From assembly GCF_965152275.1 (NCBI RefSeq), contig NC_134234.1, positions 39,522,920-39,586,919 on the forward strand: a stretch of DNA of 64,000 bases. Direction: 5' to 3'. This document shows, piece after piece, positions 7,791 to 45,247 of the stretch. The stretch is from Natator depressus (Eukaryota). Under the pieces are notes generated by a model. It worked only from the letters and a program-made list of their open reading frames with translations, ran no database searches and was not told where the DNA came from. Numbering within the stretch: the first letter of the stretch is position 1; every line of letters begins with the position of its first letter. The translations under genes and the position numbers were made by a program.

Positions 7791-7939
7791 TTAAAATTCA
7801 TACCCCTGAGAGATGTCGCTATACTGACTTGACTTCTGGTGTTGACCAATGCTAGGTCAATGGAAGAATTCTTCCATTGACCTAGCTACTGCCTTTTGGA
7901 GAGGTGTAGTACCTACACAGATAGGAGAACCCCTCCTGT

Positions 7940-11430: not shown

Positions 11431-11586
11431 GGTAAAATTCTGTACAAAGTGCGGTGGAAGGGATATACCTCGGACGATGATACCTGGGAACCAGAGGTTC
11501 ATCTGGAAGACTGTAAGGAAGTGCTGCTTGAATTCCGAAAAAAAATAGTGGATAGTAAGCCTAAGCCTGTTAAGAAGGACATACAG
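11431..11586 (+). CDS. MPHOSPH8: MPHOSPH8 exon 2 (chromodomain)
   Basis: AG acceptor at 11429-11430. Encodes GKILYKVRWKGYTSDDDTWEPEVHLEDCKEVLLEFRKKIVDSKPKPVKKDIQ, near-identical to the human MPP8 chromodomain (GKVLYKVRWKGYTSDDDTWEPEIHLEDCKEVLLEFRKKI...KDIQ). GTATGT donor at 11587. Confidence 0.93.
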
Positions 11587-12226
11587 GTATGTCTGCTTTT
11601 CCCCCACCTTCCTTTAAAGACGTCTTTCCCTTTTTAGGCCTCATTTTCTGGTATTAAATGTTCTATGGAGTTGTGTTCAGACTCTAAAATATAATCAAAA
11701 TTTCTTTTTAGTAGAGGCCTTTATTATTGGAATGACCATTGCTTGCTCGCTTGGGAGTTGCTATTAATTAAAGTTTGGGTAATATTACAAAAATCTCTTA
11801 AATTAGGAAAAAATACCATAAGTGCTCCTTTTGGCCAAGCTTGTGAGGTCCTTACATTTAATTTGATGGCATTTCTCTTTATGTAACGTGATAACTTGTG
11901 AACTCAGCATACGATCAATTCCAAAGTTATTGGGAATGTTTAAGGCGTCAGTGGCCAGAACCTTACTGATTCTGGGGGGAAATTGGAAAACCAAAAGGCG
12001 AGAAATGGAAACCCTACCATCAGATTACTACAATCACTGTTTCAGGCACCTCTGCAATTGTATATAGTTCAAGCAGCCAGCTGATGACATCAGTTAATGC
12101 CTTGTGGCATAAAAATACTCCTGCTTGGCTTCTTAATACAGTTTAACATGTAACAAGATGCCTTGACTGACTAATCACCCAGATAGATTGGGAGTGTCTG
12201 GCGTAGGGGAAAGGGACTGGTGGTGA

Positions 12227-14698: not shown

Positions 14699-15550
14699 AA
14701 ACTGTCTTTAAATGATGAATTATTTGAGGCAGAATCTGACAGTGACTTGCAAAGTGAAGCAAAAGAAGACACATCACCGAAGAAGAAGAAGAAAAAATCA
14801 AAAGATGGTGAGGATAGAAGCCCAGATGATTTGAAAAAGAAAAAATCAAAGTCTGCAAAATTCAAAGAGAAACCCAGGCTGGAACGTGAAAACTCCTCAG
14901 ATAGTTTGATTTTAGATTCGAAACCAAAAAAAAGAACTTCAGAAACCAAGGAAGATTCAAAAGATCCTAAGAAGCAGAAGAAAGAAGATTCTAAAGAACT
15001 CAAGAAAAAGAAGGGAGAAATTAAAGATTTAAAGACAAAATGTAAAGAGGATTCTAAAGAAAGTAAAAAATTGCGAAAGGAGAAACATGGTGACCTTCAG
15101 TTTGACTCTGAGTCAAGCACCCTAGATGATTCGTTTTCTCAAGTAGCTGACAATGAAAATTCAGACTTGTGTTCTGAGGGTAGAGAGGAGAAACACAAGA
15201 TAAAAAGTGGAAAAGAGAAATCTGAACAGGAAATGGTTATGAAGGATTCCATTGCTGACAGGCAGCCAGATGGGTCAGCAAGTACTGAAGAGGACAGCAT
15301 TGAGCTGAAGGTTAAAAGGAAAAAGAAGAAACTTAAAAAGACTGAAGATTACAAAGAGGAAAGTAAAAAAGTGGAAACAAAGGACAACTATTTGGAGAAG
15401 AAAAATATGCACAAAAAACAAAAAGCTCAAGAAAAGGCAAAATCTTCTGCAGAGTTAGACAAAGTTTCACCTACACCTGCTCCAGTGCAAAAAAGTTTGA
15501 AATTGTGCACTGATGAAAAAGGGCGCAAGTCGACTGATTCAGTTGGGGAG
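14699..15550 (+). CDS. MPHOSPH8: MPHOSPH8 exon 3 (large K/E/S-rich disordered region)
   Basis: Acceptor ttttatag at 14691-14698. Encodes KLSLNDELFEAESDSDLQSEAKEDTSPKKKKKKSKDGEDRSPDDLKKKK...KGRKSTDSVGE (284 codons, phase 0 to phase 0). Colinear with human MPP8 KLSLNNDIFEANSDSDQQSETKEDTSPKKKKKK...STDSAEE. GTAAGC donor at 15551. Confidence 0.85.
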
Positions 15551-15939
15551 GTAAGCAGTGTTTTGAAATTTGAAAAACAAAGTTTAAATCAGACAAATAT
15601 TATGCCAGGGACATACCTCAGACACCTCAAAAGCCTACTATTTCTGATCGCAAAGACAAAAATATAATTGGGAGAGTTAATGAGGATAAAATGAAAGAAG
15701 CCCACTGCACACTCTATAGGGGAGACTCTGTTTGAAAAATTTTCTCTGTATACTGAACATAATAAAGAAGGGAGCATGTTAGGAGAGAAGCCTGTCTCTA
15801 AATGTTATCTGAATGTGGCGGATGTGTCAAAGGGAAGAGGCACTTTATCAAAGGTAATCCTAAAACTGTTCAGAAAGTAAGTATTGTACATTAAGTTAGC
15901 TTGTCTTTAGTTTAGTGTTCAGTAGAGTTTAAGTCAGTA

Positions 15940-20283: not shown

Positions 20284-22195
20284 GAAAGTTAAAGAAACTC
20301 CTATGACAACCAAGTTCCAGGTGGGGGTGAAGGTGGCTGCATGGGGCCCCCAGAGTCCAGACCTCCGCACCCCCTTTACCCCCAGAGCCCAGATACCTGC
20401 AACCCTCTCCCCTCCAGAGCCCAGCCATGGGGGCCTCCCCCAGAGCCTTTACTCCCTCCAGCTTCTTTACTGTCCCGCTGGGGGATGTGGTGCAGTACAG
20501 CCCTGCCCTACCCTTCTTCACCCTTTGACAGAGCTGGCTGTCCGGAGCCCTCTCATGCCCAGGAGAATGAGGATTGGGGGTCAAACCTGGCAGCCAGAGC
20601 ATGCAGCCTCCATCCCTGCCAGGATGGGTGCTCTGCTCACTGCGAGCTGGCCTCTGCAGACCCCTAGTGGTGGCCAGCAGTGCTGCAACCCCAATTCTGT
20701 GGGAGAATTCTGCGCAAATTTTGCATTACACAGTAATGCAGTATTCCCACAGGAATAACTAATCTTCCTTATTTTCTATATGCCCAAGTTACCAAACAGG
20801 CACCAGGTTTATCAGAGTTGCTGAGCCTTTGCAACTGGAGATTGTCAGTAGGAACTTACAATTTTGGTCTTAATTTCTGACTGTAAAATTGGGTATAATT
20901 CCATCTTGCCTCACAGAGGTGTTGTAAAGATAAATATGCATCTGTGTTTTTATGTAATCAAAGAATCTTTGGATTGGATCTTTCGTTAACCTTTTCTGAC
21001 TTATTGTAGTGATGATTCCTTAACATGTTAAATAATCCTAATCACTGTTTCCTCAGTGCCCATAAATGAATTTGTAGTAATTACTTTTGAAGACATTAAC
21101 ACTACATCATGTAGGTGGATTGATTTAAATCACCAGTTCTTCTTCGAGTGCTTGCTCGTATTGATTTCAATTAGGTGTGTGCGCGCCGCATGCACAATCG
21201 TCGTAAGATTTTTACCCCAGCAACACTCAGTGGGTCGGATGAGGCACCCCCTGGAGTGGCGCCTTCATGGTGCCGGATATATGCTCCAGCTGACCCAGTG
21301 CCCCCTCAGTTCCTTCTTACCACCCGTGACAGTCGTTAGAACTGTGGAGCGCAGCGTAGCTGATCTCCATTCTCCCTAGCTTTCTCTCTTAGTACCTGTT
21401 AATAGTTGTAACTAGTTGTTAGTAGTTAGTGTACTTAGTTGGGTGGAGCGGGGTCTTCTCCCCTCTACCTGTCCTGATACAGGGGCCCATGCCTAGGTCT
21501 CCGGGCTTCAAACCCTGCTTGGCTTGCCTGAAGCCGATGCCAACGGGAGACTCCCCACGACCCTTGCCTAAGGTGTCTGGGGGAATCCCACCAAGCGGAC
21601 AAGTGCCACAATTGCAAAGCCTTCAAGCCGAGGACCAAAAAGGAGCGGGACTTTAGACTCCTTATGGAGGTGGCACTTAGCCTGATCCCTTCCTCCGCGC
21701 ACTGGGACTTGGCATAGTCTTCGGTGTGGAGTGCCCCTGCGGCACCGACTGGTGTGGCACCACGTTCGGACTTTGCTAAAGACTTGTGGCGTCATGCCCC
21801 TCCGGCACATCCACCACCGCGGTGCCAGTCCCTGTCTCCGGGCCAGAAGAAGAAGCAGCTCAAGCAGGTGCCGACTGCTTCTTCTTTGTCGGTTCAACAG
21901 CCACCAACACTTCCCGCACCGCAGCCGGGGCCGCATCCATTGCTGGAGCACACAGGACAAGTAACGGCTCCTACACCGTTGACTCCGACACCGTAAGGGC
22001 TGTCTAGTCCGGTGCCTGTTAACTCCCCAGTGCACACTGCAGTCGAGCTAAGGCTCCCCTCCGCGCCAGAGACCTTCTCTATAGCGCGGGACTTGATCGC
22101 GCTCACAGAGCCGACTCCCTTGCAGCCAGTGGCACCTCTGGTGCGGGCGGTGCCATCGAAGGGAAAACCATCCCTGATACAATCACCGTTGCCGA

Positions 22196-23218
22196 GTGAA
22201 GCAGGGCAGCACCAGTCCTGGTCCCAGTCTTGGTCCCGGCACCTTTCATGGTGTCGCTCGCAGTCCCGGCACCAATCCCGTTCTCGGCGCCAGTCATACT
22301 CGCGATGCTGCTCCGGCTCGCAAAGATCAGAATCGCGATACAGCCGGTACCGATGGGACTCTTGGCACCACTCCCGGTACCGGTCAGAGCGGTGCTCGAC
22401 CCAGAGCCAATCCCAGCGCCGGTCTCGTCAAAGGTCGCCATCGAGATCCAGATCAGGCTCCCGGTATCGATACAACCGCAGGCACCGATCGACATCTCGG
22501 TACTGTTCTACATCTCGCCACCAGTCGCTGGCACCATGGCACCGTACAGCACCGGCGGATTCTGCGCCAACACGTTCAGCACCGCCTTGGCCACCTCGCT
22601 CCACCTCCACGTCGTCACGCTCACAAGGTGGCTCTCTCACCCATGACTGGGGCAAGGATGGTGCAGGCCAGTGGCTGGACGAAGGCCAGGACTCAGGCCA
22701 AGGACCTCCACAGTGGTCTTTTTAGACCCCCTGGGCATACCATCAGGCCCAAGGGATTCCTTTGGGGGCTTCCCGTTCCACCCCTTCGGAGCCCCGAATC
22801 CCAGAGGTCACTGTGTCTCGCCCCCCCAGGAGGTTCTGAGGGGACTGCTCCAGTGTCAACACAGGCCCACGCCCCTAGTGTGGTGGACCTTGGGCAACAA
22901 GTTCCTCCAAATGAGGACCCCACGCAGGATCTCTTAGTCCCGGGGGTATCTTCCTCATCCTCGCCTGATGAGGTAGTGGCAGGGACTACGGTTTTGGGCC
23001 CTCCTCCTATGGACCTCCGCACCCACCAGGAGCTGTTCTGCAGGGTGGCGCACAATATGAACCTCCAGGTAGAGGAGGTGGTGGAGGAAGAGGACCTGGT
23101 GGTTGACATTCTGTCCCTGGAGGCACCGTCCAGGGTGGCCCTCCCAGTCATACGGACTATACAGACCAATGCCAAGACAATCTGCCAGCCTCTATTCCAC
23201 CTACGGCCAAGGGGGTGA
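22196..23218 (+). CDS. DIRS ORF1 (gag-like protein, N-terminal part), degenerate
   Basis: 340-aa ORF inside the DIRS element. Its KRKYFVP..YEYLYMHP segment recurs in the second DIRS copy (37832..38323). It overlaps an arginine/serine-rich alternative frame (22012..22725). Confidence 0.5.
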   Translation: MKQGSTSPGPSLGPGTFHGVARSPGTNPVLGASHTRDAAPARKDQNRDTAGTDGTLGTTPGTGQSGARPRANPSAGLVKGRHRDPDQAPGIDTTAGTDRHLGTVLHLATSRWHHGTVQHRRILRQHVQHRLGHLAPPPRRHAHKVALSPMTGARMVQASGWTKARTQAKDLHSGLFRPPGHTIRPKGFLWGLPVPPLRSPESQRSLCLAPPGGSEGTAPVSTQAHAPSVVDLGQQVPPNEDPTQDLLVPGVSSSSSPDEVVAGTTVLGPPPMDLRTHQELFCRVAHNMNLQVEEVVEEEDLVVDILSLEAPSRVALPVIRTIQTNAKTICQPLFHLRPRG

Positions 23219-23330
23219 AAAGGAAGTACTTTGTCCCCTCAAAGGACTACGAGTACCTCTACATGCACCCCCAACCGTGTTCCCTTGTCATGGCTTCGGT
23301 TAACAAGAAGAAACGGCATGGTCAGCCCAG

Positions 23331-23954
23331 GTGCACAAATCAAAGGACGCTAGACGCCTAGACTTGTTTAGGCGCAAGGTGTATTTGGCTGGAGGCTTGC
23401 AGCTCAGGGTGGCCATCCAGCAGGCACTCCTGAGCAGATACAATTATAATTCGTGGCACTCTATGGAGAAATTCAAAAAAGAGTTGGTTCCACAGGAGTC
23501 CAGAGAGGAATTTGGGGCCCTAGAGGAGGAGGGCAAGAAGGTGGCCAGAACCTCCCTGCAAGCCTCTCTGCACGCGGCGGCTAGGACCCTAGCCTCGGGC
23601 ATAGCCATGCGCCACATCTCGTGGCTGCAGGTCTCTGGCTTACCACCAGAGTTGCCGCAGACCCTCCAGGACCTACCCTTTGATGGCCAAGGCCTATTCT
23701 CAGACAAAACAGACTCAAGGCTGCAGAGTCTGAAGGACCTGAGAACTATTATGCGCTCTCTGGGAATGCATATCCCAGTAACGCAGAGAAGGCCCTTCAG
23801 ACCGCAGCCTCGGAGGTCCTACCCTCCCCCTTGGCCAAGACAGGACTTCTTTAGAAGATGCGGCCGAGGTGGTAGAAGACGAGAAACTGGTCACCAAGCC
23901 AGCCAAGGCCATGGCCCTCCCAAGCCATTGCCTAGGCCTAAGCAGAACTTTTGA
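23331..23954 (+). CDS. DIRS gag-like ORF (C-terminal part)
   Basis: DLFRRKVYLAGGLQLRVAIQQALLSRYNYNSWHSMEKFKKELVPQESREEFGALEEEGKKVARTSLQ... is homologous to the second DIRS copy (DLFGKKSTPLGGLQLRIANQQVLLGRYDFNKWYSMLKSKDLLPQEARLEFSLVEEEKSIMRVSLQ). Confidence 0.55.
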   Translation: MHKSKDARRLDLFRRKVYLAGGLQLRVAIQQALLSRYNYNSWHSMEKFKKELVPQESREEFGALEEEGKKVARTSLQASLHAAARTLASGIAMRHISWLQVSGLPPELPQTLQDLPFDGQGLFSDKTDSRLQSLKDLRTIMRSLGMHIPVTQRRPFRPQPRRSYPPPWPRQDFFRRCGRGGRRRETGHQASQGHGPPKPLPRPKQNF

Positions 23955-24192
23955 AGGTGCGCCCAAGGACGGAGCACCAGTCTCCATACAGGATCCTTCC
24001 CTGCCTTTCCAAGATCGTCTCTCCCATTTCCTCCGTGCATGGTCTCATGTAACATTAGACTGTTGGGTCCTTTGCACCGTGGAAAGGGGTTAATCCCTTC
24101 AATTTGCTCCCCCCCATCCTCCTACCCCATCCCTCTTCAGGGACCCTTCTCACGAGCACCTCCTTCTACAGGAGGTCCAATCACTCCTAGCT

Positions 24193-25357
24193 GTGGGGGC
24201 GATAGAGGAGGTTCCAAGAGAGTCAAGGGGCAGGGGTTTTTACTCCCGCTACTTCCTAATCCCCAAGGCCAAGGGCAGGCTTCGGCCTATCCTGGACCTA
24301 CACGGACTCAACAAATTCATAGTAAAGTTGAAGTTCTGCATGGTCTCTCTAGGTACCATTATTCCTTCGTTAGATCCTGGAGACTGGTACGCCACCCTCG
24401 ACATGAAGGACGCATACTGCCACATTGTGATCTACCCAGTGCACAGACACTTCCTTCGTTTTGTGGTCAATCAACAGCACTTTCAATTCACCGTCCTTCC
24501 TTTTGGCTTATCTATGGCCCCCAGGGTGTTTTACCAAGTGTATGGCTCTTGTGGCTGCCTCCCTTCGTTGACAACGGATCCAGCTGTTCCCATACCTCGA
24601 CGACTGGTTTATTCGGGGCCACTCCAGGGATCAGGTGCAGTCTCATGTCCAGCTCACCATAAACATGTTCAATCGACTGGGCCTCCTGCTCAGTCACAAA
24701 ATCTACTCTGGTACCAACCCAGAAGATAGAATTCATAGGAGCAGTCTTAGACTCAGGCCTAGCCCGGGCACTTCTGCTGGAAGCACGCTTCCAATCCCAG
24801 GTGAACGTCGTCCACAGCCTGCAAAACTTCCCAACCTCGACCATGAAGACATGCCTGTGCCTCCTGGGACATATGGCCTCGTGCACGTATGTGACCATGC
24901 ACGCCAGGCTGCGGCTACGTCCACTCCAAGCCTGGCTATCAACAGTATACCGCTCGGGTCAGGACAGCTTGAGCACGGTGGTTACTGTCCCACCAGGATA
25001 TTCGCCTCTCTAGACTGGTGGCTGGACCCCAAATCAGTGTGCAAAGAGGTGCCATTTCACACCCCGCAGCCCTCCATGTCCCTAGTCACGGATGCGTCAT
25101 CCCTGGGATGGGGAGCCCACCTCGGGGTCCTCTGTACACAGGGGCTATGGTCGGCAGGAGAGTTATCCCTGCACATTAACGTACGGGAGCTCAGAGCTGT
25201 GCACCTGGTGTGTCAGGCATTGCAAGAGTGCATTCAGGGCCATTGTGTTGCAGTCCTCACAGACAACACAACAGCCATGTTTTACATCAACAAGCAAGGG
25301 GGAGCCCAGTCGTCCCCCCTCTGTCAGGAGGCCACTCATCTGTGGAATTCTGTATAG
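24193..25357 (+). CDS. DIRS reverse transcriptase - RNase H (split over two frames: 24193..24729 and 24635..25357)
   Basis: RT motifs YSRYFLIPKAKGRLRPILDLHGLNKFI, DMKDAYCHIVIYPVHRHFLRF, TVLPFGLSMAPRVF. RNase H motif TDASSLGWGAHLG...AVLTDNTTAMFYINKQGG. A frameshift near 24650-24730 separates the two ORFs. Confidence 0.8.
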
Positions 25358-25866
25358 CCCACTTGATCCATCTGGTGGTGTCATTTCTCCCAGGAGTCCA
25401 GAACACCTTAGCGGACCACCTCAGCAGATCATTTCAGACTCACGAGTGGTCGGTTCTCCCGGACATCATCCACTCTGTCTTCCTGAAGTGTGGCTTTCCC
25501 CTGATAGACCTATTCGCCTCTCGTGAGAATCGGAAATGCCAAGTGTTCTGCTCTCTACAAGGACGCTCTCCGGGTTCCCTGTCAGACACCTTCCTAATAC
25601 AGTGGAAGGATCACCTGTGCTACGCCTTCCCTCCATTCCCACTAGTCTACAGGGTCCTGCTCAAGCTGTGCAGGGACAGAGCCCGTCTGATTTTGGTTGC
25701 CCCGGCGTGGCCTAGGCAACACTGGTATACCACTCTCCTAGAGCTGTTGGTGGACACTCCAGTTCCACTCCCGCTGTGGACAGACCTGACCACTCAGGAC
25801 CACGGACAACTCTGTCATCCCGACCTGCAATCTCTCCACCTCACAGCGTGGATGCTGCATGGCTAA
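25210..25866 (+). CDS. DIRS methyltransferase-like (MT) domain ORF
   Basis: NTLADHLSRSF...EWSVLPDIIHSVFLKCGFPLIDLFASRENRKCQVFCSLQ...WKDHLCYAFPPFPLVYRVLLKL...LILVAPAWPRQHWYTTLLEL matches the conserved N..AD.LSR / IDLFAS / YAFPP / LV.P.W block that lies between RNase H and the recombinase in DIRS elements. Confidence 0.65.
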   Translation: MSGIARVHSGPLCCSPHRQHNSHVLHQQARGSPVVPPLSGGHSSVEFCIAHLIHLVVSFLPGVQNTLADHLSRSFQTHEWSVLPDIIHSVFLKCGFPLIDLFASRENRKCQVFCSLQGRSPGSLSDTFLIQWKDHLCYAFPPFPLVYRVLLKLCRDRARLILVAPAWPRQHWYTTLLELLVDTPVPLPLWTDLTTQDHGQLCHPDLQSLHLTAWMLHG

Positions 25867-26560
25867 CTCAATCTGAGTTGTGCTGCTCTCGCTTCGTACA
25901 GCAGGTCCTTTTGGGTAGCAGGAAGCCCTCTACCAGGTCCACGTACTTAGCCAAGTGGAAGCGTTTTTCCTGCTGGTGCACTCAGTCATATGGCCCCGGT
26001 ACAGGCGTCAGTACCTATCATCTTGGACTACCGCCTGTCCTTAAAACAGTAGGGCTTGGCGATTATCATCCATCAGAGTACACCTGGCAGCTATTTCGGC
26101 TTTCCACCCGGGCGAAAACGGGCGTTCGATCTTCTCCAATCCCATTGTCAGCAGATTTCTCAAGGGGTTGGAGCGCCTGTTCCCACGAATTTGACAACCG
26201 GTCCCTACGTGGGATCTTAACCTGGTTCTCTCCAAACTCATGGCTGCCCCGTTCGAGCTGATGGCCACCTGCTCACTCCTGTACCGTTCCTGGAAGACAT
26301 CCTTCCTTGTAGCTATCACTTTGGCAAGGTGCGTGTCTAAGTTCAGGGCACTCACATCAGAACCACCATATACAGTATTCCATAAGGACAAGGTACAGCT
26401 GCGACCCCACCTGGCTTTCCTCCCTAAGGTGGTGTCTGCCTTCCATCTCAACCAGGACATCTTCCTCCCTGTCTTCTACCCGAAGCCACATGACTCTCAA
26501 CGGGAACAACAGCTGCACTCCCTGGACGTTCGCAAGGCCCTCGCCTTCTACATCGAGTGA
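25776..26560 (+). CDS. DIRS tyrosine recombinase (split: 25776..26261 and 26240..26560)
   Basis: N-terminal SAM-like segment RKPSTRSTYLAKWKRFSCWC. Catalytic region ...VAITLARCVSKFRALTSEPPYTVFHKDKVQLRPHLAFLPKVVSAFHLNQDIFLPVFYPKPHDSQREQQLHSLDVRKALAFYIE. One frameshift near 26240-26260. Confidence 0.75.
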
Positions 26561-28851
26561 ATTAAACCTTTCAGGAAAACATTGCAGCTGTTTGTTGCTG
26601 TGGCAGACCAGATGAAGTCTCCTCCCAGTCCAGTCTCCTCCCAGCGCATCTTGTCCTGGATCACATCATGCGTCCGTTCGTGCTATCACTTGGCTGGTGT
26701 CCCAACTATGCACCTTACCACTCACTCCACATGGGCTCAGGCTTCATCTTCTGCTTTTCTGGCACACGTACCCATACAGGAGATATGTAGGGCAGCTACT
26801 TGGTCATTGGTGCATACCTTCGCCCACTAAGCGATAATTCAGCAGTCCGGGGTGATGCTGCATTTGGTTCAGCGGTCCTTTACTCGGCGACATCTCACTC
26901 CAACCCCACCGCCTAGGTAAGGCTTGGGAGTCACCTAATTGGAATCGATATGAGCAAGCACTCGAAGAAGAAAGACGGTTACTCACCTTTATAACTGTTG
27001 TTCTTCGAGATGTGTTGCTCATATCCATTCCAAACCCGCCCTCCTTCCCCTCTGTTGGAGTAGCCTGCAAGAAGGAACTGAGGGGGTGCTGGGGCATATA
27101 TCCGGCACCATGAAGGCGCCACTCCAGGGGGCGCCTCAGCTGACCCACCGAGTGTTGCTGGGGTAAAAATCTTCCGACGATCGTGCACGTGGCGTGCACA
27201 CACCTAATTGGAATGGATATGAGCAACACATCTTGAAGAACAACAATTACAAAGGTGAGTAACTGTCTTTTTTTAATCATTATTCAAATCAGCAAGGTGG
27301 AAATCTTGATTTAAATGACCTTTTTTTTTAGAATCATTTTTCATTTACTTTTTTGCATTGTATTTCTAAAGAGTTTGATTGTCATAGGTTGGTCACTATT
27401 AAAACATGTTGATTTGCCACTAAATACAGTCTTTAGACTACATTTGGTTCTTTTTGTTAAAGAGAAAATTATACTATGTATACTCATTTAAGCAATGATG
27501 TAACTTAATATACGTTTAGTCATCTTAAGATTCTTAGTTTTTTACTTTGTTAGAAAATGGTGAATGATACATTCCTTTACTAGATTATTTTTTACTTGTG
27601 ATTTATGTCAAGGTCTGTTTGGATGGAAATTCAATTAAAAATGTACAAAGCCAGCGTTTTAAATTTTTTTTAACCTACCTAAAATGTGCTGGTTACATAA
27701 GAAAAATGATTTATTTAAACAAAGGAAGTATGATCTGTAGTTAGTGAATTGAACTGTTTGTTTCTAGTTTCATGTTCTTCAAGATTTTACAAGTAGTAGG
27801 AATCTCATCTCACACCAAGTTTGTTTTTTTTAATTCATAGATTGGAAAAGGGAAACAAGCTTTCCATTTTCAACTCACAATTGGTTTCTTAACTTTGAAT
27901 GAACTGGAAGTCATTGAACTGAACTAGTTGAATAAACTGAAATGAAGAAAATATTCTCTCCATCTGCAGAAGAGGGTATTGCTATCAAAGGCTGGTTTAA
28001 TACTTCAGCAAACTCTGGTTCCAGGGGTTTAGCCAGTGACTTTCACCAGTTCATTGTTTTGATTTTCTTTAAAACTTGGCAGAAAAATGTACTGCTTAAT
28101 ATTTTTTGTATTCAATATATTATGATACCCTATGTTTATTTTTTAAAATCTACATTTAATTTTAATTTTTAAAAAATTTGATTTTTAATTTTTTAACTAT
28201 TCTTCTCCATCTGCACATCAAGATGTGAATGTTTTCATTGAGTAATAGCAAGATCTTTTTGTAACCTGTGGCTTCTATCACACTTTCTCCTCCCTATAGT
28301 TTGTCCTAATTTTAGACGTATCACAAGAAGGGAAACTGTAAGGTCTTTGAAACAGAGACTATGTGTATTTTTCATGCTAGAAAAGCACCCAGCATACTTG
28401 GGGTATTGAAAGAACAAGAAATGTGGATGCTAATAGTTTCTGCTCTCTTCCAATGTAAAGTAATTGTAGTATAAATTGCTTAAAGCTTTGATTGAAAAGT
28501 GCTAATGTTGGTGGTAATTTTACCATGTGAACATCTGTTCAATAGGAGCTGGACTAAGGGCACTAAACATTTTTAATGTAAGTTTGTGACAGATCAGATT
28601 ACTTTTATTCACTAGCAACCTTGTCTGGATTTTAAATCAGCAAATCAAATGTGAAAGGCTTTGTATCCCACTATAGGTCACCTGTGCTGTTCACTCTCCA
28701 TTTTATTATCCCCCTGTTCCCCACACTAATCTAATGTTAGTGATGGCTCTGGCAGAGAAATGCAGAACTCTGACTTTGGTTCTTGGCAGTTGAAAACTGA
28801 TCATTTCACTTTAATATAGCATAGCACTTTAATTTTATCTTTTGCCTTCAG

Positions 28852-28957
28852 TACCAGGAAAAGGAAGTAAAGAAAAATGAAATAAAAGAAAAACCTCAGA
28901 AACGATATGACTCCGAAAAGGAAGAAAAAGGCAGAAAAGAGCAGAAGGGATTAAAAA
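28852..28957 (+). CDS. MPHOSPH8: MPHOSPH8 exon 4
   Basis: Acceptor ttgccttcag ends at 28851. Encodes YQEKEVKKNEIKEKPQKRYDSEKEEKGRKEQKGLK (human: ...KEKYQKRHDSDKEEKGRKEPKGLKTLK). GTAAGT donor at 28958. Phase 1 carries over to exon 5. Confidence 0.8.
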
Positions 28958-29899
28958 GTAAGTTATAATCAAGGGTTTTGCACAGTTAGAGAGAACAAAG
29001 AGCTTTTAGACCAGTGGTCCCCAACCAGTTGATCCTGGAGCCTCTGAGTGGCAATCCTGGTCTTAGTCCCCCATCTCGTCCCGCCACCCCCTTCAGGATC
29101 ACAGCCAGCTAGGGGAGTACATCCCATCCACCCTACCATGCTCTCAGCCAAAGAGGTGGTTTTCCAACAGTAGACGGTGCTTTAACAAAGTGCACGCTGC
29201 AGGGACAGTACAGCCCAAATGCTAGATGCGCCCGCTGAACTCACAGTACAGCTGAGATGCGGCTCTCTATCCGAAGCACAGGCTGCAATGCCAGTCAAAG
29301 GAAGCCCCAGTTTGAGAACTGTCCTGATTAAACAAGCAGCCGCAGACAGGTTAATTTACACACATGCAAGGCGCATACCAACCCCATCCCAAACAGATCA
29401 TCAGCCTTAGCCTAACAGAGACTGCAGGGTGTTAACAACAACAGCCACCTTGGTAATTGTCATGACATGAAATGAAATACTCCAGTCTCCTGACTGGGGC
29501 TTTGAAATACCATTAATGGAACAGAGCCTGTTTCCAGTGCAAAACCTGGTGCTCCCAGCCAGGCAGGGGAACGAAATAATTGATTGCCTTCTCGCTATGA
29601 ATTCAAAATGGTGTTTGATGTCCGGTCATTCATTGTTGTAACTGGAATAACAACACAATTCATTTGGCTAATTTGGGATGATGAATGAGCCATTTGGGGT
29701 GCCATTAATGCTGAATAAGGAGAAGGGACTGGCAGGGAAGAGGCTGCACTAATCTCAGAGAGGGGAGGGACAGTGCTTCTGCCTTCCCGAAGAAAATCCA
29801 GTCACTTCCCAGGGTGTTCAGCAAGGCTGTTTTGAAAGTTCAGTGGTCATGTTTTACTAAACCAGCAGCAAAAGGGGAGGCTTCTACTGAAGCATCGTT

Positions 29900-30897: not shown

Positions 30898-32788
30898 GTC
30901 TGGAGAAAATAGAATCATAGAATATCAGGGTTGGAAGGGACCTCAGGAGGTCATCTAGTCCAACCCCCTGCTCAAAGCAGGACCAATCCCCAATCAAATC
31001 ATCCCAGCCAAGGCTTTGTCAAGCCTGACCTTAAAAACTTCCAAGGAAGGAGATTCTACCACCTCCCTAGGTAACGCATTCCAGTGTTTCACCACCCTCC
31101 TAGTGAAAAAGTTTTTCCTAATATCCAACCTAAACCTCCCCCACTGCAACTTGAGACCATTACTCCTTGTCCTGTCCTCTTCTACCACTGAGAATAGTCT
31201 AGAACCATCCTCTCTGGAACCACCTCTCAGGTAGTTGAAAGCAGCTATCAAATCCCCCCTCATTCTTCTCTTCTGCAGACTAAACAATCCCAGTTCCCTC
31301 AGCCTCTCCTCATAAATCATGTGTTCCAGACCCCAATCATTTTTGTTGCCCTTCGCTGGACTCTCTCCAATTTATCCATATCCTTCTTGTAGTGTGGGGC
31401 CCAAAACTGGACACAGTACTCCAGATGAGGCCTCACCAATGTTGAATAGAGGGGAACGATCACGTCCCTCGATCTGCTCGCTATGCCCCTACTTATACAT
31501 CCCAAAATGCCATTGGCCTTCTTGGCAACAAGGGAACACTGCTGACTCATATCCATCTTCTTGTCCACTGTAACCCCTAGGTCCTTTTCCTCAGAACTGC
31601 TGCCTAGCCATTCGGTCCCTAGTCTGTAGCTGTGCATTGGGTTCTTCCGTCCTAAGTGCAGGACCCTGCACTTATCCTTATTGAACCTCATCAGGTTTCT
31701 TTTGGCCCAATCCTCCAATTTGTCTAGGTCCCTCTGTATCCTATCTCTGCCCTCCAACGTATCTACCACTTCTCCCAGTTTAGTATCATCCGCAAATTTG
31801 CTGAGTGTGCAATCCACACCATCCTCCAGATCATTTATGAAGATATTGAACAAAACCGGCCCCAGGACCGACCCCTGGGGCACTCCACTTGACACCGGCT
31901 GCCAACTAGACATGGAGCCATTGATCACTACCCGTTGAGCCCGACAATCTAGCCAACTTTCTACCCACCTTATAGTACATTCATCCAGCCCATACTTCTT
32001 TAACTTGCTGACAAGAATACTGTGGGAGACCGTGTCAAAAGCTTTGCTAAAGTCAAGAAACAATACATCCACTGCTTTCCCTTCATCCACAGAATCAGTA
32101 ATCTCATCATAGAAGGCGATTAGATTAGTCAGGCATGACCTTCCCTTGGTGAATCCATGCTGACTGTTCCTGATCACTTTCCTCTCGTGTAAGTGCTTCA
32201 GGATTGATTCCTTGAGGACCTGCTCCATGATTTTTCCGGGGACTGAGGTGAGGCTGACTGGCCTGTAGTTCCCAGGATCCTCCTTCTTCCCTTTTTTAAA
32301 GATTGGCACTACATTAGCCTTTTTCTAGTCATCTGGGACTTCCCCCGTTCGCCACGAGTTTTCAAAGATAATGGCCAATGGCTCTGCAATCACATCCGCC
32401 AATTCCTTTAGCACTCTCGGATGCAACTCGTCCGGCCCCATGGACTTGTGCACGTCCAGCTTTTCTAAATAGTCCCTAACCACCTCTTTCTCCACAGAGG
32501 GCTGGCCATCTACTCCCCATGTTGCGATGCCCAGCGCAGCAGTCTGGGAGCTGTCCTTGTTAGTGAAGACAGAGGCAAAAAAAGCATTAGCTTTTTCCAC
32601 ATCCTCTGTCACTAGGTTGCCTCCCTCATTCAGTAAGGGGCCCACACTTTCCTTGGCTTTCTTCTTGTTGCCAACATACCTGAAGAAACCCTTCTTGTTA
32701 CTCTTGACATCTCTTGCTAGCTGCAGCTCCAGGTGCGATTTGGCCCTCCTGATTTCATTCATACTAGAAAAAATTGAAGACAAAGGAA
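30898..32788 (-). mobile_element. CR1 LINE, 5'-truncated, with intact-looking RT C-terminal ORFs
   Basis: The minus-strand 3' end carries (ATTCTATG)n, seen as catagaatcatagaat on the + strand at 30898-30915. ORFs 32325..32783(-), 31317..32309(-) and 30994..31320(-) encode classic CR1 ORF2 (HKSMGPDELHPRVLKELADVIAEPLAIIFENSW; [48 protein letters not shown]; FADDTKL; [21 protein letters not shown]). Confidence 0.9.
31317..32309 (-). CDS. CR1 ORF2 reverse-transcriptase domain
   Basis: 330-aa ORF with RT motifs ([38 protein letters not shown]). The upstream ORF 32325..32783(-) continues the protein across one frameshift or stop. Confidence 0.9.
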
Positions 32789-36002: not shown

Positions 36003-39000
36003 TCTTCAAGTGCTTGCGTACGTCCATTCCAATGTAGATGTTTGCGTGCCCCAAATACAGTTGCTAGAAATTTTCCTCTCAGTGGTATCTGTAGGGTCAG
36101 CTCTGGCACCTTCTGGTGCTGTGTACTCATAACGCTGGTATAAAGGGCCCCTCAGTTCCTCCTTATCGCCCGTGACAGTTGCTGGAACTGTTCTAACTTG
36201 CTATCACAAGTTTCTCAGTGGACTGTGGTTTTTTCTGTTAATTGCATATAGTTCTCTTTATAGTTTAGTTTTTCTCTATTAGCAGAGCTTAGGACTTCAA
36301 GTCTTGTGCCCCCTACAACGAGGCTATGCCCCTGAGTGACCTGCACTTCAGATAATAGGTGCTGACTACATGGGTGCTTTGGGACTGGAACACCCACGGG
36401 GGAAAAAATAGTGGGTGCTCCCCCAGCAGCGGCCCCACTGATCAGCTCCTCCCCCTCCCTTCTGCCAGTGATCAGCTGTTCAACGGCATGCAGGAGGCAC
36501 TGAGGGGGAGGAGCAGGGGCAGAAAGAGGCAGGGTGAAGTGGGGGCAGGGCCTGCGGTGGAGCGGGAGTCAAGCACCCCCAGGGAAACCAGAAAGTCCAC
36601 ACCTCTGCTTCAGATGCCTGACATGCTTGGGTGGGGCTCACACCAAGGACCCACTGCAAGATTTGCAGGGATTTTAAGCCCCTTACCAAGAAGGATCAGG
36701 AGGCCAGCTTGAAGTCCCTGCTGTTGGAGGCTGTGCTGAGACCTTCCTTGGAGCCGTGCCGATCGGACTTGCCACTGAGCACTTCATCATGGGTGAGGAG
36801 TGCTCCTCCCACCATGGCAGTCTTGGCACCATTCAGCATCCCCAGTGCCAAGGAAGAAGCAGAAGAAGCTGCAGCTGAGAGAGGTCGTTTCCCATCCCCA
36901 AAGGAGGAAAGGCACGGAGAGCAGAACGGAGTGCGACCTGTGTCAGGCCACTCCTGCCCCGGCAGCCCAGAAGCTGGTGCCGTTGATTCTGGCCCTTATG
37001 TGGGTACCATTGAGTCTGGCTCTGGAAGACCCACCCACACTGGAAGGTCGGCACTGTACCAGTGCTGATGACATAGATGGCACTGCAAAGACGTTTGTTG
37101 CCACCAGGGACATGCTTTCGCTGTCGGTGCTGGCATCACTGGCAGTTCAGGAGTCAGTGATGTCGGTGCCAGGGAGCACAAGGGAGTATGCAGTCACTGG
37201 TCACCATTCGGAGGCCTGGTGCCATTGAAAGGGTAACTGTCCATTTGGTCCCACCACAGTCTTCCCCACCTCAGCACCGATTTCCAGTATCTCTGGGAAC
37301 TACTCATGGTCACCAAGCAGAGACTCATCCTCTGAGTCGGGGTCATACTCCTCCCATCTGAGGAGTTGACCGTGACATGCCTCCAGACATCCCTACCCAG
37401 CTGTGGACTTGGGCTCAGGAATGACATTGGGTTCTTTGCCTCCTGGGTATTGGCCCATGCCCATGCAGTGGCTTTTTTGGAAACTGTGGGCATTTCCATC
37501 TGTGCAGGGGCCCCAGTCGAGGTGCTCCTGATCGGTGGCCTCCGAAAGAGGAGCACCGCCATTCCTTAAGGCAGCGCCTCATCTGGACTCCAGTACCAAG
37601 CTCAGTGCCGAATATCAGGAGCTGGTGCTGTGGGATCAGGTCGGCGAGGAGTGCCATCAGCCGGTATCAGCGTCCACCTCCTCTGCTGCTCAGGCCATGT
37701 CAGGAGCAGGCATGTTACCTTCCCATGATGACTACAAGACACACCAGGAATTACTGAAAAGGGTTGCCAAAATTTGGGGTTACAGGTGGATGTAGTAAGA
37801 GTCCTCAAATAGTCTGGTCAGCATCCTGCTCATGGTGGGCCCATCAAGAGTACCCCTCCCCCACCCCTCAGTGAGGCCATATGGATCTGTTTCCCTACCT
37901 CCCATGGCTAAGAGTGCCAAGAGGAAGTACTTTGTCCCTGCTCACGGCCATGAATTTCTATATATTCATTATTGTCGTCCTCCCCGCTCCCCTCCCCACC
38001 TCACCCCTTGCAGATCCATGGTGGTCTCCCAACGGAAGGGCTCCAAGGCAAAGGACTCCAAGAATCTGGACCTGTTTGGAAAAAAGTCTACCCCACTGGG
38101 GGGTCTGCAGCTTAGGATTGCTAACCAGCAGGTGCTGCTGGGCAGATATGACTTCAACAAGTGGTACTCCATGTTGAAGTCCAAGGACTTGCTGCCACAG
38201 GAAGCTAGACTGGAGTTCTCCCTGGTGGAGGAGGAGAAATCCATAATGAGGGTTTCCCTGCAAGCAGCCCCTGATGCAGCAGATTTGGCAGCCAGGTCCA
38301 TAGCATCTGTGGTAGCCATGTAAGTGTTTGTGGCGTCAGTCCTCCGCCTTCCGCAGGAGGTTCAGTATACCCTCCAGAACCTACCCTTTGAGGGTACTTC
38401 ACTTTTTTCGGAGTAGACCAATACAAAGCTTCACTGTGTGAAAGACTCCAGAGCAACCCTTAAGTCCCTGGGTTTGCATACCCCCGCTACATTGAGGAAG
38501 CACTTCAGATTGAAGCAATCCTCCTGGTTCTTTGACCCTCCCACCCACAGAGGAAACAGAGCTGGGACTTCAGGCATAGGCCACCGCTCCCCCACCGCTT
38601 CAGTCTGCCCCTTGCAGTCACTTGGGCAGCCCTAAGTCCCTTGACGGGACACTCAAGGACGTTGTATCAGTTTGATTTTCCGGATCCTGTTTCCCCTTTG
38701 TTTACAGACTGCTCGTCCCACTTCAAGTGGGCATGCTTCCATAAAACTACAGGCGGTTGTGTGTTGAACATGGTGGAAGTGGGATATACTATCCAGTTCA
38801 GTTCTACCCCTCCTTTCCAGTCCCTCTTCAGGGACCCCTCTCATAAGCAACTTCTGGACTACAACATTCAGCTGCTCCTTTGGGTGGGAGCCGTGGAAGA
38901 CGTTCCACAGGATCTAAAGAGGAAAGGGGTTTATTCCCATTATGTCCTAGTTCCAAAAGCCATCCTGCGCCAGCTCAACAGCTACCTTAAGAAACTGACG

Positions 39001-39300
39001 TTTTACATAGTCTCCTTGGTTTCCATTATTATTCCCTCTGGATCCAGGGGACTGGTCCACCGCCCTCAAATTTGAATGATTCCTACTTTCACATATCTAT
39101 CTTCGAGGTCACAGAAGGTTCCTCACGCACTAGCAATTTGCAGTTCTCCTGTTTGGCCTGTGAGTATTTACAAAGTGCATGGTAGTAGTAGCAGCCTACT
39201 TGAGGAGACAAGGGGTACCCGTATATGGACGAGGCTGGTCAGGGGTCAGTATAGCATCCACTTTATCCGGTCAACATTCAAGGCTCTAGCCTGCTAATAA
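36003..39300 (+). mobile_element. Second DIRS-like element, truncated and degenerate (left ITR, gag-like, start of RT)
   Basis: 36003-36210 (cttcttcaagtgcttgcgtacgtccattccaat...ctcagttcctccttatcgcccgtgacagttgctggaactgttctaac) matches the left ITR of the DIRS at 21128. ORF 37832..38323 (KRKYFVPAHGHEFLYIHY...DLFGKKSTPLGGLQLRIANQQ...) parallels the gag ORFs at 23200-23954. ORF 38641..39075 (LDYNIQLLLWVGAVEDVPQDLKRKGVYSHYVLVPKA) parallels the RT N-terminus (LQEVQSLLAVGAIEEVPRESRGRGFYSRYFLIPKA). Confidence 0.7.
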
Positions 39301-40628
39301 ACTTTTAGAAATTCACTCTCACTCTGGTGCAGAGGATAGTTTATTGGAGCGGTGCTCAACTCTACCCAAGCCCCAGAGCCTTCCTCCCAGAAGTCCAGTT
39401 TCAGGTGATAGTGTTCTTGATCATACACCTCAAGAACCTGTAGCCCAATCTATAGATTAAATTATATATAACCCATATATATAAATTATAGGTTACTTAA
39501 GAATCCCCATTTATCACTTGGAGGGTTGACAGATTTCGGGCTAGAAATAAGTGAATTAATTATGCTTTTTTTGGTCAAATGTTTCTTTTCTCCTATCTTA
39601 AGAAGTTAGCATAGCCAGTGCTACACTGCCATCTAACAAACAATGAGGTCAATAGTGAGAATACATAAAAGGTAGGGCTGTCACGCAATTAAACAATAAT
39701 AGAATACCATTTATTTAAATATTTTTGGGTGTTTTCTACATTTTCAAATATTGATTTCAATTACAACACAATACAAAGTGTACAGTGCTCACTTTTTAAA
39801 TTACAAATATTGGCACTGTAAAAAACAAAAGAAATAGTATTTTTCAGTTAACCTAATACAAGTACTGTAGTGCAGTCTCTTTATCATGAAAGTTGAGCTT
39901 ACAAATACAGAATTTTTACAAAAAAACTGCATTCAAAAATAAAACAATGTAAAACTGTAGAGCCTACATGTCCACTCAGTCCTACTTCAGCCACTCAGGC
40001 AAACAAGTTTAGTTACAATTTGCAGGAGATAATGCTGCCCACTTCTTGTTTACAGTGTCACCTGAAAGTGAGAACAGGCATTCGCATGGCACTGTTGTAA
40101 CTGGTGTTGCAAGATATTTATGTGCCAGATGTACTAAAGATTCATATGTCCCTTCATGCTTCAACCACCATTCTAGAAGATATGCATCCATGCTGGTGAT
40201 GGGTTCTGCTCGATAATGATCCAAAGCAGAGTGGACCGAAGCATGTTCATTTTTATCATCTGAGTCAGATGCCACCAGCAGAAGGTTGATTTTCTTTTTT
40301 GGTGGTTTGGGTTCTGTAGCTTCTGCATCTGAGTGATGCTCTTTTAAGAATTCTGAAAGCATGCTTCACATCTCGTCCCTCTCAGATTTTGGACGGTACT
40401 TCAGATTCTTAAACCTTGGGTCGAGTGCTGTAGCTATTTTTAGAAATCTCACGTTGGTACCTTCTTTGCATTTTGTCAGATCTGCTGTGGAAGTGTTCTT
40501 AAAATGAACATGTGCTGGGCCATCATCTGAGATTGCTATAACACGAAATATATGGCAGAATGCAGGTAAAAGAGAGAGCAGGAGACATACAATTCTCCCC
40601 CAAGGAGTTCAGTCACAAATTTAATTAA

Positions 40629-44343: not shown

Positions 44344-44425
44344 GTAAGTAATTTTTGGGAAGAGGGAAAAATTTCTTATCTGGTGTTCTAAAGCGAATAT
44401 TCCAATTGAATGAATTTTCTTTCAG

Positions 44426-44514: not shown

Positions 44515-45247
44515 GTAATATCTGTAAAGAGGAGGTATTGAAGGGAAATTTTTTACAAATCCAGTGTATGGAAGAGGAGACTTTACTTAGAGCTCTTCAG
44601 GTTAAACTGTTCAGATTTGAAATTGGTAAGCAAATATGTGCGTAGTTAAATATTACAAATATACTTAAATAGAACCCTAGATTCTAAATTGGCAGGTAAG
44701 CAGGAGCTAACTTTCAGGTATTTGGTTTTTAAATCTGACTAGCTTATATTTAGCATACACATATAGTTGTGTTTTGGGTATTTTAAATGGTTATTGATCT
44801 CTTCTCCATTTCCTTTAAGTAAAACAGTCAGTTAACTCTTTGGGGTTCGTTTCTATTGCAAATGACTGTATGCTGTAAAACTTGACAAGTATTTCTAAAA
44901 TGTATGTACTTCTAAAACATATATATTATATAAAAGCATGAGAAATGGATGGACTTAAATCACTGATTTTTCACCATGATTTAAATCAGCAAGCAGGAAA
45001 CACTGATTAAATCGTGGGTTTTAATCTTGTTTTGCATCTGTACTTTTTAGTTATTTTCCTAAAGAAATGTTGATTCATTGGCTGGTATCCATTACAACAT
45101 GTTGATTTGCAACTAAATACAGCATTTACACTAAATTTGGTAAGTCTTGCTAACCAGGAGGATACATTATATCTATACCAGAGCTTGTGGGAATGATTTG
45201 AATGTGGCCTGGTTATAGTGCACTTGTCCCCCCCAAGCCCATTTACA

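What the first reader, a model, noticed from the sequence alone, without database searches (positions are those of the whole stretch)
21128..27246. Textbook DIRS architecture (ITRs + internal complementary region) in a 6.1-kb intronic copy
The element has about 230-bp inverted terminal repeats that are about 90% identical. A 90-bp internal segment (26943-27035) has two halves that are complementary to the outermost tips of the left and right ITRs respectively. This is the hallmark ICR that DIRS elements use to regenerate termini via a circular intermediate. All expected domains are present in order (gag-like, RT, RNase H, MT-like, tyrosine recombinase), and the coding region is broken by only about 5 frameshifts. 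That points to a relatively young family with likely intact master copies elsewhere in the genome. DIRS elements are sparsely annotated in amniotes.
Basis: seen in the sequence. Interest (0 to 1): 0.6.

Follow-up and report, generated by a model that had tools for sequence, protein, structure and literature searches.

The report
Dead DIRS1-like retrotransposon in MPHOSPH8 intron
This is an old, mutation-riddled copy of a well-known kind of jumping gene (a DIRS1-like retrotransposon of the type common in turtles), lying inside an intron of the host gene MPHOSPH8; its repeat structure is textbook, but it is ordinary and inactive.

Summary
The structural observation holds. Window 21137-27270 (+ strand) is a full-length DIRS1-like tyrosine-recombinase retrotransposon.

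- **Repeats:** inverted terminal repeats of about 180 nt (139-nt core at 90%), a 26-nt right extension, and a two-part internal complementary region (26932-27033). The two halves are the reverse complements of the left tip (41 nt, 93%) and the right tip (66 nt, 92%).
- **Coding order:** GAG (LAP2alpha-like), RT, RNase H, Dam-like MT, then a Cre-like tyrosine recombinase.
- **Relatives:** turtle copies in Chelydra and Chrysemys begin and end at the same bases and have the same geometry.
- **Insertion:** it landed in a T-run without a target-site duplication, and a paralogous empty site lies at 44946-45141. It is in the sense orientation in an MPHOSPH8 intron.

- The ends are 9 nt (left) and about 24 nt (right) off, and the ITRs are about 180 nt, not 230.
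- There are 11 frameshifts and at least 10 in-frame stops, not about 5 frameshifts.
- The recombinase has lost both catalytic arginines and its tyrosine (now a stop).
- Arm-to-arm and tip-to-ICR divergence is 7-10%, against 0-3% in the turtle copies.

DIRS1-like elements in turtles and Anolis are already published. Verdict: a correctly recognised but ordinary, dead copy of a known element type.

The parts
21137..21318 (+). Left terminus / left ITR. The tip 21137-21177 pairs with the left ICR; the core 21152-21290 pairs with the right ITR.
   Evidence: Alignments to the Chelydra (L001) and Chrysemys (L003) elements begin at 21135-21137.
21537..23954 (+). ORF1 (GAG-like) remnant. It contains a CX2CX4HX4C knuckle (21565-21606), an Ser/Arg-rich stretch (about 22190-22600) and a LAP2alpha-like domain (about 22950-23800). 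It carries 4 frameshifts (21552, 22846, 23183, 23335) and 4 stops (21715, 21994, 22723, 22837).
   Evidence: Frameshift-aware alignment to the Chelydra 842-aa ORF1 and to Chrysemys XP_065448406. The family profile hits LAP2alpha 2v0x at E 4.3e-12. Pfam LAP2alpha is matched by 13 of 20 relatives.
23869..25866 (+). pol remnant: RT (about 24259-24745, YLDD retained), RNase H (about 25082-25345) and Dam-like MT domain (25351-25863, uninterrupted). It carries 4 frameshifts (24529, 24692, ~24993, ~25346) and stops at 24091 and 24569.
   Evidence: RVT_1 scores 68.7 bits on the stitched translation. RT_RNaseH is weak. Dam PF05869 gives E 0.053 here and is matched by 16 of 20 relatives.
25737..26913 (+). 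Tyrosine recombinase ORF remnant, whose 5' part overlaps the end of pol in another frame. It carries 3 frameshifts (~25986, ~26063, 26846) and 4 stops (26050, 26192, 26558, 26828). Catalytic changes: RVSEL Arg to Cys, HSTR to HSTW, and the nucleophile Tyr to a stop.
   Evidence: The family profile matches Tre/Cre recombinase at E 8e-8 to 2e-6.
26932..26972 (+). Left ICR: reverse complement of the left tip 21137-21177 (41 nt, 3 transitions).
26971..27033 (+). Right ICR: reverse complement of the right tip including the right extension. It overlaps the left ICR at the A-rich circular junction (GAA/AAA).
27069..27244 (+). Right ITR
27245..27270 (+). Right extension (rE). It is complementary only to the right ICR. 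The exact end is ambiguous by about 3 nt inside a T-run.
   Evidence: Alignments to the Chelydra and Chrysemys elements end at 27272-27274.
44946..45141 (+). Paralogous 'empty site'. This is another copy of the host repeat into which the DIRS inserted. The joined flanks (…21136 + 27271…) align across the junction.
14705..15550 (+). Upstream flanking exon of the host gene MPHOSPH8. The next clear exon is at 42410-42676.

Best explanation
Window 21137-27270 is one full-length but degenerate genomic copy of a DIRS1-like tyrosine-recombinase retrotransposon. It belongs to the lineage found in turtles. It sits in the sense orientation in the intron of MPHOSPH8 that follows that gene's large exon.

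**How an active element of this kind works (established knowledge plus inference).**
- Its RNA is reverse-transcribed by the element's RT/RNase H.
- On the single-stranded cDNA the two ends anneal side by side to the internal complementary region, which restores and joins the termini into a circle junction. This is the Cappello model; the ICR was shown to be essential in Dictyostelium (PMC7192593).
- The Cre-like recombinase then recombines the short junction (here T-rich, TT/TTT) with an identical T-run in the target. No target-site duplication results.

**What is shown here.** The repeat geometry; the domain content and order; an insertion into a T-run without a duplication; and the same architecture with perfect tip/ICR complementarity in a young Chrysemys relative.

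**What is inferred.** The replication steps themselves, and the age of the copy (probably tens of millions of years).

This copy cannot move on its own. All three ORFs are broken and the recombinase active site is destroyed.
For: - **Geometry:**
- **Same ends and same lITR/lICR/rICR/rITR/rE layout in relatives:**
  - Chelydra L001 4792-11069: ITR 97%, tips/ICR 97-98%.
  - Chrysemys L003 6934-13168: ITR 98%, tips/ICR 100%.
- **Tip and ICR change together between families** (window and Chrysemys ATCGATT versus Chelydra ATGTATT; CACCTTT versus CACCGTA).
- **Domains:** RVT_1 at 68.7 bits. Dam-like MT in 16 of 20 relatives. The YR profile matches Cre/Tre with the conserved RVSEL, LPKV, HSTR, ATW and HY motifs. 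The ORF1 profile matches LAP2alpha, as published for DIRS1-like GAG (PMC4495291, PMC9210276).
- **Closest proteins are all from turtles**.
- **Element size and repeat lengths match the Anolis elements:**

| Feature | This copy | AcDIRS1/2 (PMC3266345, Table 3) |
|---|---|---|
| Element length | about 6.13 kb | 5.9-6.0 kb |
| ICR halves | 41 / 63-66 nt | 39-40 / 58-60 nt |
| Right extension | 26 nt | 26-28 nt |
| Junction | T-rich ends, A-rich junction | TTT / AAA |

- **No duplication, and an empty-site paralog**.
- **Decay:** 11 frameshifts and at least 10 stops. ITR mismatches 14/139 and tip/ICR mismatches 8/107, mostly transitions and many at CpG. CpG observed/expected is 0.54, against 0.76 in the Chelydra copy.
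Against: - This copy's YR and GAG give no significant Pfam hit on their own. Their identity rests on family profiles.
- The MT assignment for this copy is only E 0.053.
- The empty-site alignment is strong to the right of the junction but weak to the left (the left flank adds about 30 score units).
- The exact ends are ambiguous by 2-3 T residues.
- The source species and the family's copy number in it could not be examined.
Confidence: 0.97

Rival explanations
1. It is a young, nearly intact DIRS copy that may still be mobile, with only a handful of frameshifts.
For: The full-length architecture is retained. YLDD and the RNase H motifs are present, and the MT domain is uninterrupted. Relatives in Chelydra and Chrysemys have long ORFs.
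Against: There are 11 frameshifts and at least 10 stops. The YR catalytic Arg I, Arg II and Tyr are lost. Arm and tip/ICR divergence is 7-10%, against 0-3% in the turtle copies. This copy is only about 73% identical in nucleotides to those copies.
Confidence: 0.01
2. It is a different repeat-bounded retroelement: Ngaro, PAT-like, or a Ty3/gypsy LTR element.
For: The RT/RNase H are gypsy-related (RVT_1 and RT_RNaseH hits). Ngaro and PAT elements also encode a YR.
Against: There are no terminal or split direct repeats; the only long repeats are inverted, plus the ICR. A Dam-like MT domain is present, which Ngaro lacks. There is no DDE integrase and no target-site duplication.
Confidence: 0.01
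3. It is a chance or composite arrangement: unrelated TE fragments (for example a retroelement plus a Crypton-like YR transposon) bracketed by a fortuitous foldback.
For: The window is TE-dense: CR1-like LINE, Penelope-like element, hAT and other DIRS fragments.
Against: Collinear alignment from the first to the last base with independent elements in two other turtle genomes, which have the same termini and ICR. Shuffles give at most 42.8 bits against 198 bits for the inverted match.
Confidence: 0.005
4. The insertion has been co-opted by the host, for example as a GAG/LAP2alpha-derived exon or a regulatory module of MPHOSPH8.
For: It is in the sense orientation in an MPHOSPH8 intron. DIRS1-like GAG was domesticated twice in mammals (PMC4495291).
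Against: Every ORF is broken, including GAG with 4 frameshifts and 4 stops. The mutation pattern is neutral-looking, with transitions and CpG decay. No MPHOSPH8 protein aligned to any part of it.
Confidence: 0.01

Closest known systems
Vertebrate DIRS1-like elements with published fine structure: Anolis AcDIRS1/AcDIRS2 and Xenopus XtDIRS2/3 (Piednoel et al. 2011, PMC3266345; Xenopus families in PMC9210276)
   Same: The layout is the same: lITR … lICR-rICR … rITR-rE. Sizes are near-identical (element about 6 kb; ICR halves about 40 and 60 nt; rE 26-28 nt; conserved ITR about 140 nt). Termini are T-rich with an A-rich circular junction. The ORF set is GAG(LAP2alpha) / RT-RH-MT(Dam) / YR, and the YR ORF overlaps pol. 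A short motif is shared by both ITRs and both ICRs (TTGCTCATAT..ATTCCAA here).
   Different: It is a different host lineage (turtle-type). Protein identity is only about 44-50% to Pogona, Eublepharis, Sceloporus and Xenopus relatives. This copy is degenerate.
Turtle DIRS1-like elements (Chrysemys picta and Pelodiscus sinensis; Abascal et al. 2015, PMC4495291); the Chrysemys L003 and Chelydra L001 copies examined here
   Same: Collinear from end to end, with the same first bases (TTCTTCTTCGAGTGCTTGCTC…) and the same ICR. GAG is 81% identical to Chrysemys XP_065448406 over the matched C-terminal 205 residues. YR is 74-81% identical to Gopherus and Chelydra proteins.
   Different: Only about 73% nucleotide identity to those two copies. 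It is therefore a different or older subfamily, and far more decayed.
Dictyostelium DIRS-1 (Cappello et al. 1985; Malicki et al. 2020, PMC7192593)
   Same: This is the defining architecture: inverted, non-identical terminal repeats, and an ICR whose first part complements the left end and whose second part complements the right end. The ICR is experimentally essential for retrotransposition.
   Different: In DIRS-1 the gene order has the YR ORF overlapping pol more extensively, the ITRs are longer (about 300 nt), and insertion is preferentially into other DIRS-1 copies. There is no meaningful sequence similarity outside the enzyme cores.

Membership tests
DIRS1-like retrotransposons (order DIRS) | Inverted terminal repeats bounding the element | tested here: met
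   139-nt core at 90%; about 180 nt with gaps at 84%. Shuffle control.
DIRS1-like retrotransposons (order DIRS) | Two adjacent internal complementary regions just upstream of the right ITR. The left ICR complements the left tip; the right ICR complements the right tip plus its extension; the two overlap at a short circular junction. | tested here: met
   26932-26972 versus 21137-21177 (93%). 26968-27033 versus 27208-27273 (92%). 26-nt rE.
DIRS1-like retrotransposons (order DIRS) | pol with RT and RNase H related to Ty3/gypsy | tested here: met
   RVT_1 at 68.7 bits (cut-off 29.6). RT_RNaseH is weak at 17.1 bits for this copy, but 19 of 20 relatives match it.
DIRS1-like retrotransposons (order DIRS) | Methyltransferase-like (Dam-like) domain after RNase H | tested here: inconclusive
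   For this copy, Dam PF05869 gives E 0.053 and 13.6 bits, below the cut-off. The segment is homologous (37-49% identical) to relatives, of which 16 of 20 match Dam (best 8.7e-8).
DIRS1-like retrotransposons (order DIRS) | Tyrosine recombinase ORF at the 3' side, instead of a DDE integrase | tested here: met
   The family profile matches Tre/Cre at E 8e-8 to 2e-6, in both the core-binding and the catalytic regions. The conserved RVSEL/LPKV/HSTR/ATW/HY motifs are in the alignment. Pfam Phage_integrase is matched only weakly, by 6 of 14 relatives and not by this copy.
DIRS1-like retrotransposons (order DIRS) | Insertion without target-site duplication, at a short sequence identical to the circle junction | tested here: met
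   There is no direct repeat at the junctions. The joined flanks align across the junction to a paralogous empty site containing a T-run. The Chelydra and Chrysemys copies also abut a T-run on the right. This is a single locus, so support is moderate.
DIRS1-like retrotransposons (order DIRS) | ORF1 GAG-like protein (LAP2alpha-type in vertebrates) | tested here: met
   The profile hits 2v0x at E 4.3e-12. Pfam LAP2alpha is matched by 13 of 20 relatives. The single sequence alone gives no hit.
DIRS1-like retrotransposons (order DIRS) | Autonomous competence (intact ORFs and catalytic residues) | tested here: not met
   11 frameshifts and at least 10 stops. YR Arg to Cys, Arg to Trp, Tyr to stop. 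This is not a membership criterion; it shows the copy is a fossil.
Ngaro / PAT-like YR retrotransposons | Split direct repeats at the termini | tested here: not met
   No terminal direct repeats. The only direct family touching the ends (D2, 26 nt) is the ICR/ITR shared motif.
Ty3/gypsy LTR retrotransposons | Direct LTRs, a DDE integrase, and a 4-6 bp target-site duplication | tested here: not met

The most novel reading that the evidence does not exclude
The copy could represent a turtle DIRS1-like subfamily that is not individually described. It is about 26% diverged in nucleotides from the Chrysemys and Chelydra copies examined. Its GAG starts with a conserved CX2CX4HX4C knuckle followed by a Ser/Arg-rich tract. 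Intact, still-active masters might exist in the source genome. I could not check Repbase, Dfam or the source genome, so this is not excluded.
Probability: 0.2. Interest if true: 0.15.

Novelty: already known. Interest (0 to 1): 0.1.

Why it matters
It matters little beyond annotation. It is a clean worked example of the DIRS1-like lITR/lICR/rICR/rITR/rE layout in a reptile, with an informative empty-site paralog and a T-run target. It could serve as a positive control for structure-based DIRS finders. It adds no new mechanism. The host gene, MPHOSPH8, encodes a subunit of the HUSH retroelement-silencing complex (my own knowledge, not checked here), which is an amusing coincidence with no evidence of significance.

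Tried and rejected
- **Pfam on raw ORFs.** Only RVT_1 was significant, with a weak RT_RNaseH hit. There was nothing for GAG, MT or YR. The stitched GAG alone gave no Pfam or PDB hit. Family profiles were needed.
- **The D6 direct repeat** (TTGATTTAAAT… at 21120 and 27306) was considered as a possible target-site duplication. I rejected it: the right copy lies 36 nt beyond the element, and the motif recurs inside the host repeat and its paralog.
- **Plain tblastn** merged frames and hid two frameshifts, so I wrote a frameshift-aware aligner.
- **Exact-sequence look-ups** of six window ORFs, meant to identify the source species, found nothing.
- **The MPHOSPH8 exon search** returned no turtle protein. 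This is probably because low-complexity words saturated the candidate list, so the species stays inferred.
- **Locus L002 (Macrochelys)** was not available to the script, and its blastn comparison was empty.
- **Rfam** gathering scan of the window found nothing.
- **Not run:** structure prediction and fold search, because the sequence profiles were decisive.
Full report
**1. Observation**

A self-comparison of 20500-27900 gives four inverted pairs that define the structure:
- I1: 21152-21290 with 27088-27226 (139 nt, 90%).
- I4: 21291-21318 with 27069-27096.
- I3: 21137-21177 with 26932-26972 (41 nt, 93%).
- I2: 26968-27033 with 27208-27273 (66 nt, 92%).

Gapped blastn joins the arms into 21136-21318 versus 27069-27244 (84% over 185 columns). 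The element therefore has these parts:
- ITRs of about 180 nt.
- A right end that runs 26 nt beyond the ITR (27245-27270).
- An internal segment, 26932-27033, made of two abutting halves. The first is the reverse complement of the left tip. The second is the reverse complement of the right tip including that extension.

Thirty mononucleotide shuffles of the element gave inverted self-matches of at most 42.8 bits, against 198 bits for the real sequence.

The start is 21137, not 21128. The end is about 27270, not 27246. The ITRs are about 180 nt, not about 230. The ICR is 26932-27033.

**2. Boundaries and insertion site**

Three independent lines agree on the ends.
- **Related elements.** Alignments to elements in Chelydra serpentina (L001) and Chrysemys picta bellii (L003) start at 21135-21137 and stop at 27272-27274.
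- **The ICR junction.** The reverse complement of the ICR reads …GTC-TTT-CTTCTTCGAG…, which is the right end joined to the left end.
- **An empty-site paralog.** The left flank joined to the right flank aligns across the junction to another copy of the same host repeat at 44946-45141. There the junction corresponds to …AAATCACTGA-TTTTT-CACC….

There is no target-site duplication. The T-run makes the exact crossover ambiguous by 2-3 nt.

The Chelydra and Chrysemys copies likewise begin with TTCTTC directly after a non-T base, and they end in a T-run. This fits the published model of recombination between a 3-bp junction and an identical target trinucleotide, TTT/AAA in AcDIRS2 and XtDIRS3 (PMC3266345). 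The left-side part of the empty-site alignment is weak, so I rate this as supportive rather than conclusive.

**3. Coding content**

*pol.* A stitched translation matches RVT_1 at 68.7 bits and RT_RNaseH weakly. The best database proteins are all from turtles: Macrochelys, Chelydra ('ORF 3, partial'), Chrysemys and Pelodiscus. Pleurodeles, Pogona and many metagenomic DIRS-type pol proteins follow.

*MT-like domain.* The segment after RNase H (25351-25863) is uninterrupted. It matches Pfam Dam only at E 0.053, but 16 of 20 relatives match Dam.

*Tyrosine recombinase.* The 3' ORF is 74-81% identical to turtle proteins that UniRef labels 'Core-binding' or 'Tyr recombinase domain-containing'. A 14-sequence profile matches Tre/Cre recombinase at E 8e-8 to 2e-6 in both domains. 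The alignment shows the RVSEL, LPKV, HSTR, ATW and HY motifs. Pfam Phage_integrase is matched only weakly, by 6 of 14 relatives and not by this copy.

*GAG.* ORF1 has 704 relatives in the 50%-identity representative library. The closest is Chrysemys XP_065448406, 81% identical over the matched C-terminal stretch. A profile of 20 relatives hits the LAP2alpha structure 2v0x at E 4.3e-12, and 13 of 20 match Pfam LAP2alpha. This is as published for DIRS1-like GAG (PMC4495291, PMC9210276).

The domain order GAG, RT, RNase H, MT, YR is confirmed.

**4. State of the copy**

I ran frameshift-aware alignments to the long ORFs of the Chelydra element, to Pelodiscus pol, to Gopherus YR and to Chrysemys GAG.

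| Region | Frameshifts | In-frame stops |
|---|---|---|
| ORF1 (GAG) | 4 | 4 |
| pol | 4 | at least 2 |
| YR | 3 | 4 |

The change of frame between pol and YR is native: the two ORFs overlap, as in many DIRS1-like elements.

In the recombinase, the RVSEL arginine is Cys, HSTR is HSTW, and the nucleophile tyrosine codon is a stop.

ITR mismatches are 14/139 (11 transitions, 8 in CpG context). Tip/ICR mismatches are 8/107, all transitions. CpG observed/expected is 0.54, against 0.76 in the Chelydra copy and 0.2-0.3 in the flanks.

| Copy | ITR arms | Tip / ICR |
|---|---|---|
| Chrysemys L003 | 98% | 100% |
| Chelydra L001 | 97% | 97-98% |
| This window | 90% | 92-93% |

If these pairs are identical at insertion, as the young copies suggest, this copy has accumulated roughly 4-5% change per sequence. 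With slow reptilian substitution rates (my own knowledge, approximate), that points to tens of millions of years. This is an inference.

'Only about 5 frameshifts' and 'relatively young' are not supported.

**5. Evidence that the tip/ICR pairing is maintained**

Where the families differ, tip and ICR differ together.
- Window and Chrysemys have ATCGATT in both the left tip and the left ICR. Chelydra has ATGTATT in both.
- The window has CACCTTT and ATATCCATT in the right tip and right ICR. Chelydra has CACCGTA and ATATCTATT in both.

A core motif (TTGCTCATAT..ATTCCAA) is shared by both ITRs and both ICRs, as described by Piednoel et al.

**6. Context**

The 306-aa K/E/S-rich ORF at 14747-15667 is the large exon of MPHOSPH8. 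tblastn places exons on the + strand at:
- 11431-11598 (chromodomain) and 14705-15550
- a weak candidate at 28855-28959
- 42410-42676, 44205-44345, 44425-44514, 45476-45628, 46303-46395 and 47943-48020 (ankyrin region)

The element is therefore intronic and in the sense orientation.

The source is most likely a turtle. [quoted passage not shown] I could not identify the species.

**7. Mechanism**

*Shown here:* the architecture, the domains, an insertion at a T-run without a duplication, and co-variation of tips and ICR.

*From the literature:* the ICR is essential for DIRS-1 retrotransposition, and the cDNA intermediates are single-stranded (PMC7192593). The Cappello model has the ends annealing to the ICR to give a circle junction, which the YR then recombines with the target (PMC3266345).

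*Inferred:* the ancestor of this copy used that route.

**8. Comparison and novelty**

Element size, ICR half-lengths, extension length and T-rich termini match AcDIRS1/2 and XtDIRS2/3 almost number for number (PMC3266345, Table 3). DIRS1-like elements with ITRs have already been described in painted turtle and soft-shell turtle (PMC4495291).

This is a fossil copy of a known element type: already known, and of low interest. The only open point is whether its subfamily (about 73% nucleotide identity to the two turtle copies examined) is individually catalogued, and whether it is still active in the source genome.

Noticed in passing
window 11431-11598, 14705-15550, 42410-48020 (+): The host gene is MPHOSPH8 (MPP8): a chromodomain exon, a large charged exon and ankyrin-repeat exons. 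MPP8 is a subunit of the HUSH retroelement-silencing complex (my own knowledge). At least four TE families sit in its introns here.
   Followed up: partly
window ~36150-39230 (+): A second, more diverged DIRS-like fragment: a knuckle-like 'CKICRDFKPLTKK', GAG 39% identical to Chrysemys GAG, and the start of RT, truncated near 39226. 36148-36191 is 86% identical to 21302-21345 of the main element.
   Followed up: partly
window 60816-62759 and 63819-63947 (-): Further DIRS-like fragments on the minus strand: RT C-terminus/RNase H/MT (36% to Pelodiscus pol), plus YR pieces (47-58% to Gopherus YR). The apparent duplication of YR pieces suggests nested or rearranged copies.
   Followed up: partly
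window 48829-50707 (+): A Penelope-like element with two long overlapping ORFs, split by one apparent frameshift: RVT_1 (E 4e-11) and GIY-YIG (E 8.7e-5). It looks much less decayed than the DIRS copy.
   Followed up: partly
window 31317-32783 (-): LINE reverse transcriptase ORFs (CR1-like by my reading of the sequence): RVT_1 at E 1.7e-37 in a 330-aa ORF, plus an upstream 152-aa ORF.
   Followed up: partly
window 40009-40362 (-): A fragment of the hAT transposase C-terminal dimerisation domain (Dimer_Tnp_hAT, E 1.2e-11).
   Followed up: partly
window 21565-21606; L001 ~5230-5275: The N-terminus of DIRS ORF1 carries a conserved CX2CX4HX4C (zinc-knuckle spacing), followed by 'KAFKPRTKKERDFRL' and, further on, a long Ser/Arg-rich tract. 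It is conserved between the window copy and the Chelydra copy. It gives no Pfam zf-CCHC hit. It is not mentioned in the two DIRS papers I text-searched for 'zinc' and 'CCHC' (PMC3266345, PMC9210276).
   Followed up: partly
L001 7817-10705 versus 7458-9656: In the Chelydra element, the 962-aa ORF that ends in the YR stays open for about 1.8 kb in a second frame over the pol ORF. This resembles the 'long ORF overlap' reported for some DIRS1-like elements. That copy has HSTQ instead of HSTR.
   Followed up: no
window 27271-27460 and 44946-45141: An unclassified AT-rich host repeat with internal TGATTTAAATCA palindromes, in two copies about 72% identical. The DIRS element is inserted in one of them.
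   Followed up: partly
window ~4000-6000: A GC-rich block (58.5% GC) upstream of the chromodomain exon. It is probably the CpG island and first exon of MPHOSPH8. This was not verified.
   Followed up: no
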